DNA of 64,000 bases from Escherichia coli (GTDB lineage Bacteria; Pseudomonadota; Gammaproteobacteria; Enterobacterales; Enterobacteriaceae), in assembly GCF_022846255.1 (NCBI RefSeq), contig NZ_AP025682.1. The stretch is one strand, 5' to 3'. The position numbers are program-made. Shown piece by piece: positions 62,301-64,000 of the stretch (positions within the stretch are counted from its first letter, which is position 1; each line of letters opens with the position of its first letter).

Positions 62301-64000
62301 AGATCAAAAAAGTACTCGTTATATATCACATCCTTTGCCAGCAGGATGACTGCATTACCAACAGCCGATTTTACAGGTGTTTCATCAGGTGGATTATCGT
62401 GATTGTATATTGTTCTTTCTATATAAATAAAGCAGGCATATTTCGTCTTCTCCCCGGACAGTTGCATCTGGTATTCGCAAATGTCTTTGATACGCCGGCT
62501 TTCAACCCGTCCAATCATCTTATCCCGGCGATAGTGTCTTTTATGTTTCAGCGCGTACAGAACACCATTTGAACTGTCAAACTCCAGGATTTTTTTGGTG
62601 AAAAGTTTGTTTTCCCAGATTTCCAGACAATACTTCTCTGCGCTGACGACATTGCGTTTGTGGGGAAGATCCCGTTGATACACTCCATTTAATAAGCGTG
62701 ACTGCAGTTCGCCTGCAAGTTGATAGTAACAGTTAATGTCATTAAGGACAGGTGCTGTGGCGTTGAGTAATGTGTTGATTACCTTAGAGCGCGAAAGTTT
62801 GTGGATATGACAGTACTCATCCACAATTCGCAGCGTCTCATCACTGGTCATATTGAAAGTTATACGTGTTGTCATGATGAAGTTTTCTGTTAATCATACT
62901 GGTTGATATGCATAACATTTCATAAAAAATGCTTTTAATTCATATAATTGATTTTTTGACTGGTTTTATCCTCGTGTGGTGGAAAGCAGTATTACTGCCA
63001 CTGTAGTCAGCATAACGCTATCACACAGAACCACCGAAAATGAAGCATTGCTCAGGGGGAAGCTGCCACTCGTATGAGTTCTCTGAACCATGATAACCAG
63101 TATTTTTCGTTTTGGGTGATTTGTTTATCGTTACAGCCATAAGCAGTTCATGTACCATTAAAAAATAATTAAGGTTAATTAGTATTATTTATAGAAGTAT
63201 GTTTATGTAACTCTACCTTGTAACTCTACCGTGTAAATGAACCCTGTAATTCTACCTTGTAAATGAACTCTGTCATTGTACCCTGTAATTCTACCTCTAC
63301 CTCTACCTCTACCTCTACCTCTACCTCTACCTCGTAAATACACCTTGTAACCAAGTCCTGTAGAAGTCTGTCTCATAGAAATATGTTCCTGTGCAGTGAT
63401 ACTCTCTGTAGTAGTACTTGTAACTCTGTCCTTAACTCTCTCTTCAGTAATGTAGTCCCGCAACACCTGAATATAAATCTGTAATGTACACACACTGACT
63501 GTAACGTGCTTTGTTAAGTAATACCTGTTATTTCTTCTGTTATTTTTCCTGTTGTTTTCTGTATTTTGTTGTATGGAGTAATAACTCTTCTGAACCCGTC
63601 ATCACCTTTATAGCTAAGAGTATGACTTCGCCAGTGTTGATACTGTGGATAACGGTGATTAAGGAATTACTGTTAATGATCTGTTCCTGCAGCTCACCTG
63701 ATGAGTTTTGGTAGTAATACGTAAAAGAGTATGCCTTATGCCATTAAACAGCCTTACGGAATGTTGTTTAACCCTGTACCTCTGTTACTCATGTAGTACG
63801 TTGCGGAAAGCTACGTTAATTGTAATATCTGGTTATGGCGTTATGCCTTCAGTATTAAAAACATCTTTTACCGGAGAAACAGGGAAGTGGGGAAAGGCTT
63901 TCGGGATAACGTCAGGCCATTCTGACGGTATTACGTTAATCACAGTACAGGATAACGGGAGGGTAATGGAATTTTAAACCAGAGTAGTTCCACTGTTGTT

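What the first reader, a model, noticed from the sequence alone, without database searches (positions are those of the whole stretch)
63205..63500. Direct-repeat field with a perfect (CTACCT)x7 microsatellite
At least six degenerate units of the form TGTAA(C/T)TCTACC precede seven perfect CTACCT hexamers, followed by more TGTAA/CTGTA-rich sequence. Candidate roles are arm-type binding sites for the island recombinase, iteron-like sites, or a contingency locus whose copy number alters the promoter of the orphan ORF at 62084-62875. The 96-codon ORF spanning it encodes (GR)n only as a by-product of the repeat.
Basis: seen in the sequence. Interest (0 to 1): 0.5.

Follow-up and report, generated by a model that had tools for sequence, protein, structure and literature searches.

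The report
Hypervariable tandem repeat in island control region
A real, fast-mutating compound tandem repeat (13-base units plus a CTACCT microsatellite) sits in the long non-coding region between two divergent gene sets of an E. coli genomic island; its copy number differs even between near-identical strains, but no function is proven.

Summary
Window 63206-63296 holds seven head-to-tail 13-nt units (consensus TGTAAnTnnACCn). Positions 63291-63332 are a perfect (CTACCT)x7, and three more degenerate units and scattered TGTAA copies follow, all on the + strand.

The array lies in a 1.35-kb gene-free region. On one side is a yagM-family gene followed by alpA (- strand). On the other is a degraded hha paralog and a yagK/yfjJ HUH Rep-like gene (+ strand, just beyond the window). 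This region occurs in about 750 of 5426 complete E. coli genomes.

Across 24 sequenced alleles the array spans 26-146 nt: 2-9 units, hexamer copies of 1, 2, 3, 5, 6, 7 or 8, and in one lineage (TGTAATTC)x15. Loci with 0-3 flank substitutions differ by exactly one hexamer or one 13-nt unit, so it is a hypermutable VNTR.

- Arm-type integrase sites are rejected: tRNA-Phe and the integrase lie about 40 kb away.
- The 96-codon ORF is a by-product, because no reading frame is conserved across alleles.
- The basal TGTAA array survives in a 73%-identical variant with intact cores. My best guess, unproven, is a protein-binding operator or iteron-like array, with the hexamer tract as a slippage by-product and spacer.
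- Rivals are a neutral VNTR, a C-rich Rho-loading leader, and a contingency switch.

Interest is moderate.

The parts
63206..63296 (+). Seven head-to-tail 13-nt units, consensus TGTAAnTnnACCn. Two alternating subtypes: A = TGTAAYTCTACCn, B = TGTAAATGAACyC.
   Evidence: The per-position information of 16 distinct units from 24 alleles is.
63291..63332 (+). Perfect (CTACCT)x7 microsatellite grown out of the 3' half of the last unit. The most C>G-skewed 78-nt stretch in the whole 64-kb window.
   Evidence: Copy number in other strains is 8, 6, 5, 3, 2 or 1.
63333..63371 (+). Three further degenerate 13-nt units (CGTAAATACACCT, TGTAACCAAGTCC, TGTAGAAGTCTGT). This is the conserved right edge of the array.
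63372..63510 (+). Tail of the field: dispersed same-strand TGTAA/CTGTA copies at 63419, 63480 and 63500.
63164..63205 (.). Conserved AT-rich anchor block AATAATTAAGGTTAATTAGTATTATTTATAGAAGTATGTTTA immediately left of the array. It is shared with diverged yagK upstream regions (TTAGGTTATTAGTGTTATTTTATAAAG; TAGTATAATTAAGG). Candidate divergent promoter region.
   Evidence: A minus-strand promoter-like hit at 63211->63184 comes.
62084..62875 (-). yagM-family gene (UCP007319/PF27701). The N-terminus may be a ribbon-helix-helix domain.
   Evidence: Ribbon-helix-helix hints come; others (poor model; no ribbon-helix-helix protein found) are inconclusive.
61494..61700 (-). alpA-family excisionase/regulator gene, downstream of the yagM-like gene.
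63644..63652 (-). Single perfect DnaA-box sequence (TGTGGATAA), conserved in all alleles examined.
63966..63977 (+). Remnant of the hha paralog start (ATG GAA TTT TAA). hha is intact at this place in other alleles. The yagK (HUH Rep-like) gene starts about 250 nt beyond the window end.
63203..63493 (-). 96-codon ORF with (GR)n. A by-product of the repeat, not a gene.

Best explanation
Shown:
- The feature is a compound, hypermutable tandem repeat. It lies in the long non-coding control region between two divergent gene sets of a CP4-type island at pheV: yagM-like then alpA on one side, and (hha)-yagK, zinc-ribbon genes and an alpA-like gene on the other.
- An old array of head-to-tail 13-nt units (TGTAAnTnnACCn, alternating A and B subtypes) is present in every E. 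coli variant of this region.
- Both layers of the repeat gain or lose whole units between otherwise identical loci, as replication slippage would produce.

Inferred:
- In the window's lineage the 3' half of one unit (CTACCT) has expanded by slippage into a 7-copy microsatellite.
- The 13-nt units are head-to-tail binding sites (operator or iteron-like) for one of the small DNA-binding proteins encoded beside them. Candidates are the AlpA-type winged-helix protein, the HUH Rep-like YagK, or the possibly ribbon-helix-helix YagM-like protein.
- These sites would control the divergent promoters at the conserved AT-rich block that abuts the array.
- The hexamer tract is a mutational by-product. At most it acts as a variable spacer or tuner: it adds 6 bp per step and contributes C-rich, G-free sequence on the yagK-sense strand. 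It is not an on/off switch.
For: Structure and chance.

Context:
- A 1.35-kb gene-free region between the yagM-like gene and yagK.
- The same architecture in 15 E. coli loci.
- It is retained as a short (about 390 nt) divergent yagK/yagM region in homologues at 57% YagM identity.

Hypermutability:
- 24 alleles span 26-146 nt.
- Among loci with 0-3 substitutions in 1430 nt of flank, five independent differences are each exactly one hexamer or one 13-nt unit.

Constraint on the units:
- In 16 distinct units, positions 1-5 (TGTAA), 7 (T) and 10-12 (ACC) carry 1.5-2 bits, while positions 6, 8, 9 and 13 carry 0.35-0.8 bits.
- The 73%-identical variant L120 still has five alternating units with all TGTAA cores intact.
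- All copies, including the dispersed ones, point the same way.

Neighbouring DNA-binding proteins:
- AlpA matches excisionase families.
- YagK matches REP_ORF2-G2P and YagK_YfjJ_C and keeps the HxH and RYxxSYLAK motifs at 37% identity.
- The YagM-like N-terminus aligns to CopG with 80% probability.

Related leaders carry direct repeats at the same place:
- CCCTGT copies in the Salmonella-like group.
- An independent 12-nt tandem array in L104.
Against: - No binding data exist, and the binder is not identified.
- Unit number ranges from 2 to 9. Sub-unit expansions of 6 nt and 8 nt break the 13-nt register, which a strictly phased binding array should not tolerate.
- A 13-nt period is not helical.
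- The repeat motif does not co-vary cleanly with either flanking protein. Salmonella-like and E. coli leaders share CCCTGT although their YagK proteins are only 37% identical. Citrobacter has CCTCC-type and TATCACGA repeats although its YagK is 66% identical to the Salmonella one.
- TGTA(A)TTC is not found upstream of most diverged yagK genes.
- Unit homogenisation by slippage could mimic core conservation. My unit-splitting rule also forces positions 1-5 towards TGTAA.
- The island is decaying (hha remnant, frameshifted integrase), so selection may be relaxed.
Confidence: 0.4

Rival explanations
1. Neutral VNTR. The region is simply slippage-prone non-coding DNA in a decaying, H-NS/Hha-silenced island. 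Neither the units nor their number do anything.
For: - Array length ranges from 26 to 146 nt, with different sub-motifs expanded in different lineages (6-mer, 8-mer, 13-mer).
- Two lineages make do with two units (L015, L025).
- The island shows decay.
- Published RNA-seq reports that the duplicated flu-yeeR island region of strain 042, one copy of which carries hha2, is de-repressed in hns and hha mutants (PMC6480617).
- No Rfam match, no conserved ORF, no RNA structure.
Against: - The basal alternating array and its TGTAA and ACC cores persist in a variant only 73% identical overall.
- All copies share strict strand polarity.
- Repeats recur at the same relative position upstream of yagK in diverged lineages.
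Confidence: 0.3
2. RNA-level element. The array is the start of a long untranslated, C-rich, G-poor, unstructured leader of the (hha)-yagK operon. It serves as a Rho-loading (rut-like) site that attenuates transcription into the island's Rep/AlpA operon. Hexamer expansion would strengthen it.
For: - The array is 32% C and 8.6% G on the + strand. 78-nt windows starting at 63248-63297 are the most C>G-skewed in the 64 kb, on either strand.
- The period is 13 nt. rut predictors look for C/G > 1 over 78 nt with cytosines every 11-13 nt, or YC dimers with N9-13 linkers (PMC6407284; PMC6144790).
- Most alleles pass such a scan. C/G rises from about 2 to 8-11 as hexamer number increases.
- The + strand RNA folds less well than shuffled sequence (z = +1.55).
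- C>G skew on the yagK-sense strand is shared by most diverged yagK upstream regions although their sequences differ.
- hha2 is transcribed in strain 042 (PMC4864382).
Against: - No transcription start site is known, and the scan found no + strand promoter at the anchor block.
- Such motifs are common in E. coli, about 3.5 per kb, so specificity is low.
- The octamer allele (L014) and the minimal allele L015 fail the scan.
- L037 and K-12 yagK lack the skew.
Confidence: 0.17
3. Contingency locus. Repeat-number changes reversibly alter expression of the yagM-like gene or of hha-yagK, by moving promoter or upstream elements.
For: - One-step copy-number differences occur between near-identical loci.
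- On the minus strand the units read GGTAGARTTACA, which gives -10-like (TAGAAT/TAGAGT) and -35-like (TTACA) hexamers 16 nt apart across two units. There are three hits at 63276->63249, 63237->63210 and 63211->63184.
Against: - Promoter-like hits are not enriched over shuffles (6 against 3.5 +/- 1.9).
- The tract is not between a -35 and a -10, nor inside a gene.
- It lies 330 nt or more from the yagM-like ATG and about 630 nt from the hha start.
- The variation seen is between strains. No within-population data are available.
- I know of no established repeat-slippage phase switch of this kind in E. coli (my own knowledge, not tested here).
Confidence: 0.1
4. Arm-type binding sites for the island integrase.
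For: Direct repeats in one orientation inside an integrase-bearing island.
Against: In the closest complete genome, tRNA-Phe and the frameshifted integrase are about 40 kb away and the opposite island end about 17 kb away. The array keeps its place next to yagK and yagM, not next to att, in all loci.
Confidence: 0.02

Closest known systems
Bacterial VNTR / microsatellite loci (as used in MLVA typing)
   Same: Head-to-tail perfect repeats. Whole-unit copy-number differences between closely related isolates. Intergenic location in horizontally acquired DNA.
   Different: It is compound: a 6-nt (or, in another lineage, 8-nt) microsatellite nested in an older 13-nt array whose cores look conserved. 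I found no paper mentioning it.
Iterons / Rep-binding direct repeats next to a rep gene (geminivirus iterons, the pMV158 'bind' locus, theta-plasmid iterons; from my knowledge of these systems)
   Same: Several same-orientation direct repeats with a conserved core, upstream of a gene for an HUH Rep-like protein. They abut a promoter-like AT-rich block, and a DnaA box lies nearby.
   Different: 13-nt spacing. Copy number is unstable. The array is about 880 nt from yagK in this lineage. The repeats do not co-vary with the Rep-like protein. No nick-site hairpin has been identified, and replication of these islands is not known.
Excisionase (Xis/RDF) and ribbon-helix-helix operator arrays such as lambda Xis sites, P2 Cox boxes and R1 parC (from my knowledge)
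   Same: Head-to-tail arrays of short sites bound cooperatively by small proteins. AlpA-type and possibly ribbon-helix-helix proteins are encoded beside the array.
   Different: The array is not next to an att site. No binding has been shown. The ribbon-helix-helix assignment of the YagM-like protein is only tentative.
Rho utilization (rut) sites in long leaders
   Same: C>G, more than 78 nt long, regularly spaced C/YC at 13 nt, weakly structured.
   Different: Transcription through the array in that direction is not shown. The criteria are unspecific.
Simple-sequence contingency loci of Haemophilus and Neisseria
   Same: A perfect short-unit tract that changes by one unit between near-identical strains.
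   Different: The tract is not within a promoter spacer or coding frame of any identified gene, and no phenotype is linked to it.

Membership tests
VNTR / microsatellite | Head-to-tail tandem copies of a short unit | tested here: met
   TRF found period 6 at 100% matches for 7.3 copies, and period 13 for 11.5 copies.
VNTR / microsatellite | Copy-number polymorphism in whole-unit steps among close relatives | tested here: met
   Hexamer 7/8, 6/5 and 3/2, and 13-nt units 7/6 and 6/5, in locus pairs with 0-3 flank substitutions.
Simple-sequence contingency locus | Tract lies in a promoter spacer or in the reading frame of the gene it switches | tested here: not met
   The tract is intergenic, 330 nt or more from the yagM-like ATG and about 630 nt from the hha remnant. 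The ORF over it is not conserved. Promoter-like hits are not above chance.
Simple-sequence contingency locus | Reversible within-population switching with an expression phenotype | not testable with these tools
   This needs deep sequencing of clonal populations and reporter assays.
Rep-binding iterons / replication origin | Three or more direct repeats in one orientation with a conserved core | tested here: met
Rep-binding iterons / replication origin | Adjacent gene for a replication initiator | tested here: inconclusive
   YagK gives weak Pfam hits to REP_ORF2-G2P and YagK_YfjJ_C (E about 2e-4) and keeps conserved HxH and YxxxY/YLAK motifs. It lies about 880 nt downstream, and its activity is unknown.
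Rep-binding iterons / replication origin | Repeat sequence co-varies with the initiator across lineages | tested here: not met
   The pattern of motif sharing does not follow YagK divergence.
Rep-binding iterons / replication origin | Other origin features (DnaA boxes, AT-rich unwinding region, nick-site hairpin) | tested here: inconclusive
   There is one perfect, conserved DnaA box at 63644-63652 and AT-rich flanks, but no nick-site hairpin was identified.
Integrase arm-type sites | Located in the arms of the att site, within a few hundred bp of the core | tested here: not met
   tRNA-Phe and the integrase are about 40 kb away and the other island end about 17 kb away.
Rho utilization site | At least 78 nt with C/G > 1 and cytosines every 11-13 nt, weakly structured | tested here: met
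   C/G is 8.0 with a chain of 7 spaced cytosines, the strongest skew in the window, and fold z = +1.55. Criteria are from PMC6407284.
Rho utilization site | Lies in an untranslated nascent transcript and causes Rho-dependent 3' ends | not testable with these tools
   No transcript data are available. The promoter direction at the anchor block is unresolved.
Known RNA families (Rfam) | Match to a curated covariance model | tested here: not met
   No hit at E <= 1 over 7 kb around the locus.

The most novel reading that the evidence does not exclude
The yagK/yfjJ genes of CP4-type islands encode active HUH rolling-circle initiators. On this reading the TGTAA array is their iteron or origin region, so these 'cryptic' islands would carry an unrecognised replication or mobilisation module. 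Rep-mediated nicking and joining between tandem sites, not only polymerase slippage, would then drive unit gain and loss. Alternatively, the tract could be a genuine simple-sequence tuner of an island excision/replication operon in E. coli.
Probability: 0.1. Interest if true: 0.7.

Novelty: new member of a known kind. Interest (0 to 1): 0.38.

Why it matters
As it stands, this is a previously undescribed, highly polymorphic VNTR. It is present in about 14% of complete E. coli genomes, including UPEC 536 and ATCC 25922, and could serve as a fine-scale typing marker for lineages that carry these islands.

If the units prove to be binding sites, they would mark the control switch of the widespread yagM / hha / yagK / alpA backbone of CP4-type pathogenicity islands, whose regulation and possible replication are essentially unstudied. 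The locus would also be a rare E. coli case of repeat-number tuning of island genes.

Tried and rejected
- Rfam scan of 7 kb around the locus: nothing.
- Coding potential: no reading frame is conserved over the array.
- RNA structure of either strand: weaker than shuffled sequence.
- Intrinsic terminators: none.
- Promoter scan: hits inside the units, but not above the shuffle expectation.
- Literature searches for all 12 rotations and complements of the hexamer: no relevant paper. Papers on hha2/hha3 do not mention the repeat.
- Genome-contig scan with the YagM-like protein: one locus only, titled as a Collinsella MAG and encoding a 92%-identical protein, so probably contamination.
- Viral-contig scan with the left anchor: no match. 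The phage collection gave no match, and the plasmid collection gave two E. coli records typed non-mobilizable (41 kb and 1.0 Mb).
- AlphaFold model of the YagM-like protein: pLDDT 51.6, too poor for a fold search. A PDB profile search of its N-terminus found no ribbon-helix-helix protein.
- Idea that TGTA(A)TTC is a family-wide yagK cis-element. It looked promising at first: K-12 yagK, Salmonella and L037 gave 5 hits against 0.47 expected. It is absent from most of the 21 diverged yagK upstream regions, so I dropped it.
- Idea that the YagM-like protein is the binder. It is weakened because Salmonella-like loci keep the repeat-bearing leader while having a different divergent gene.
- My early assumption that the window is strain 82.0312 was wrong. 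Only the island end is 99.86% identical, and the rest is 94-98%.

Full report
**Observation**

The sequence and Tandem Repeats Finder show a period-13 array at 63206-63351 and a perfect period-6 array at 63290-63333.

In 13-nt register there are seven units at 63206-63296:
- TGTAACTCTACCT
- TGTAACTCTACCG
- TGTAAATGAACCC
- TGTAATTCTACCT
- TGTAAATGAACTC
- TGTCATTGTACCC
- TGTAATTCTACCT

Next comes (CTACCT)x7 at 63291-63332. It grows out of the 3' half of the last unit. Three more degenerate units follow, then scattered TGTAA copies.

The four exact matches to TGTAAYTCTACC are the only ones in the 64 kb. TGTAA occurs 10 times in 300 nt against 0.3 expected, always on the + strand. The hexamer tract is one of only two perfect hexamer tracts that TRF reports in the window, the other being (AAATGG)x4.5.

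**Context**

The 801 nt around the array are 100% identical to E. coli strain 82.0312. The window itself is a different, mosaic genome. Only 50890-64000 is 99.86% identical to that strain, and the rest is 94-98%.

Using that record's annotation, the window runs through glc, sslE/gsp and a kps capsule locus into a pheV-associated island.

The array lies in a 1.35-kb stretch with no annotated gene:
- To the left, on the - strand, are a YagM-family gene (62084-62875), alpA (61494-61700), and further along the CP4-type backbone: GTPase, Ag43, antirestriction, RadC-like and CbeA/CbtA genes.
- To the right, on the + strand and just beyond the window, are a yagK/yfjJ gene annotated 'inovirus-type Gp2', two zinc-ribbon genes, a second yagK-like gene and an alpA-like gene.

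In most related loci an hha paralog sits between the non-coding region and yagK. These are the hha2/hha3-type genes described for pathogenic E. coli (PMC4864382, PMC6480617). In the window only a remnant survives: ATG GAA TTT TAA at 63966-63977.

tRNA-Phe and a frameshifted integrase lie about 40 kb to the right. That rules out arm-type integrase sites.

**Population variation**

The region occurs in 746-758 of 5426 complete E. coli genomes, always on chromosomes. For an 801-nt query the matched places range from 709 to 807 nt.

I read 24 alleles, including the window. Between fixed anchors the array spans 26 to 146 nt:
- 13-nt units number from 2 to 9.
- CTACCT copies are 1, 2, 3 (UPEC 536), 5, 6, 7 (window and 82.0312) and 8 (sister isolate 82.0311).
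- One lineage (L014) has instead (TGTAATTC)x15.

Among loci with 0-3 substitutions in 1430 nt of flank, five independent differences are each exactly one hexamer (7/8, 6/5, 3/2) or one 13-nt unit (7/6, 6/5). The array therefore mutates far faster than its flanks.

**What it is not**

- No Rfam family matches.
- No reading frame is conserved over the array, because 13-nt steps shift the frame.
- Neither strand folds better than shuffled sequence (z = +1.55 and +0.94).
- There are no terminator-like sites.
- Promoter-like hexamers do fall inside the units on the minus strand, where GGTAGARTTACA gives TAGAAT/TAGAGT and TTACA 16 nt apart across two units. The region has no more such hits than shuffles do (6 against 3.5 +/- 1.9).

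**Comparative anatomy**

The YagM-like protein has 45-57% identical homologues. Their sources name Citrobacter braakii, Salmonella enterica subsp. diarizonae and Aeromonas veronii. In those contigs it is again divergent from a yagK gene, but the intergenic region is only about 390 nt and lacks hha.

A metagenome scan gave 21 further yagK genes at 35-41% identity. Aligning their upstream regions shows a recurrent module with these parts, in order:
1. A conserved AT-rich block (TTTGGGTTTTTAGTATAATTAAGG, or TTAGGTTATTAGTGTTATTTTATAAAG). The second form is clearly related to the window's TAAGGTTAATTAGTATTATTTATAGAAG, which sits immediately left of the array.
2. A C-rich, G-poor stretch carrying same-strand direct repeats.
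3. AAAAATTAC.
4. A hairpin that sequesters the Shine-Dalgarno sequence.
5. The yagK start codon.

In the Salmonella-like group the repeats are CCCTGT copies: CCCTGTTTCTATACCA, then CCCTGTTCACAG, and so on. The first resembles the E. coli unit read across its boundary (CCCTGTAATTCTACC). One metagenomic locus (L104) has independently amplified a 12-nt unit (GCCCTGCCAGTA, about 4.5 copies) at the same relative place. Several of these loci have a different divergent gene in place of yagM, so the repeat-bearing segment travels with yagK.

**Is the array constrained?**

In 16 distinct 13-nt units, positions 1-5 (TGTAA), 7 and 10-12 (ACC) are nearly invariant, while positions 6, 8, 9 and 13 vary. One caveat: my unit-splitting rule biases positions 1-5.

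A variant of the region only 73% identical overall (L120) still carries five alternating A/B units with every TGTAA core intact. This is better explained by selection on the cores than by drift, although slippage-driven homogenisation could contribute.

**Candidate binders**

- AlpA is excisionase-like.
- YagK gives weak but significant Pfam hits to REP_ORF2-G2P and YagK_YfjJ_C. It keeps HxH and RYxxSYLAK motifs at 37% identity, as an HUH rolling-circle initiator would.
It also hits the aCcr1 family weakly. The AlphaFold model is poor and a PDB profile search found no ribbon-helix-helix protein.

Against a specific protein-site pairing, motif sharing between lineages does not track the divergence of either protein. 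My interim idea of a family-wide TGTA(A)TTC element failed on the larger sample.

**An RNA-level alternative**

On the yagK-sense strand the array is 32% C and 8.6% G. The 78-nt windows starting at 63248-63297 are the most C>G-skewed in the whole window. The 13-nt period matches the 11-13-nt cytosine spacing, or YC-N9-13 spacing, used to predict Rho-loading sites (PMC6407284, PMC6144790).

Most alleles pass such a scan, and C/G rises from about 2 to 8-11 with hexamer number. Most diverged yagK upstream regions share the skew even though their sequences differ. hha2 is transcribed in strain 042.

Against this reading:
- No start site is known.
- The criteria are unspecific.
- The octamer allele (L014) and the minimal allele L015 fail the scan.

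**Verdict**

The descriptive part is secure. This is a compound, hypermutable VNTR in the conserved divergent control region of a CP4-type island backbone.

For function I commit, at about 0.4, to an operator or iteron-like array of head-to-tail protein-binding units. In that model the CTACCT tract is a slippage by-product that acts at most as a spacer or tuner.

The rivals are:
- a neutral VNTR (0.3)
- a rut-like leader (0.17)
- a true contingency switch (0.1)
- arm-type integrase sites (0.02)

It is a new member of a known kind. Interest is moderate and would rise if YagK proves to be an active initiator or if repeat number tunes island gene expression.

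Noticed in passing
window 59426-59461: A second small VNTR: (TTCTGGATGA) has 3.6 copies in the window and 2.6 in strain 82.0312. This is the only indel in 13 kb that is otherwise 99.86% identical. It lies in a stretch of pseudogene fragments.
   Followed up: partly
L001 13289-13328 (about 25-65 nt upstream of the yagK ATG, roughly 190-230 nt beyond the window end): A hairpin sequesters the yagK Shine-Dalgarno sequence and is preceded by a conserved AAAAATTAC. The arms differ between lineages (CCTTTG/CAAAGG, CCCATGA/TCATGGG, CTTCCTGTGTT/AACACGAGGAAG). On 14 sequences, 81.6% of cells pair against 31-61% for slid partners, and two pairs show compensatory changes.
   Followed up: partly
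window 63644-63652: A single perfect DnaA-box sequence (TGTGGATAA) is conserved in every allele examined, including the 73%-identical variant. It sits next to a conserved CTGTTAATGAT motif that also occurs at 62887 and, in similar form, near 63935.
   Followed up: partly
window 63966-63977 and L005 2634-2846: The hha paralog that sits here in other strains is reduced in the window to ATG GAA TTT TAA plus a short homologous stretch. Many other strains are annotated with a 49-aa truncated Hha/YmoA protein instead of the 70-aa form.
   Followed up: partly
L104, roughly 90-150 nt upstream of the yagK start at about 792 (metagenome contig Ga0105250_10000462): An independent 12-nt tandem array (GCCCTGCCAGTA, about 4.5 copies) lies at the same relative position upstream of a yagK gene only 36% identical to the window lineage's.
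   Followed up: no
L001 13329-13928 (yagK, beyond the window end): YagK/YfjJ proteins keep an HxH motif and an RYxxSYLAK motif across 37% identity. This is typical of HUH rolling-circle initiators and suggests these 'cryptic' island genes may be catalytically competent.
   Followed up: partly
window 1-50889 versus 50890-64000: The window is mosaic relative to the closest complete genome. The island end is 99.86% identical, while the glc/gsp/kps part is only 94-98%. This implies recombination or island transfer between backgrounds.
   Followed up: no
L001 16703-16741: A 19-nt unit (AAGTGAAGTAGAGCAGTGG) is repeated 2.1 times directly after the alpA-like gene at 16530-16697. It may mark a module boundary.
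   Followed up: no
window 35207-35233: Another perfect hexamer tract, (AAATGG)x4.5, lies at a position that corresponds roughly to a glycosyltransferase gene of strain 82.0312, in the polysaccharide-biosynthesis gene region. I did not check it for variation.
   Followed up: no
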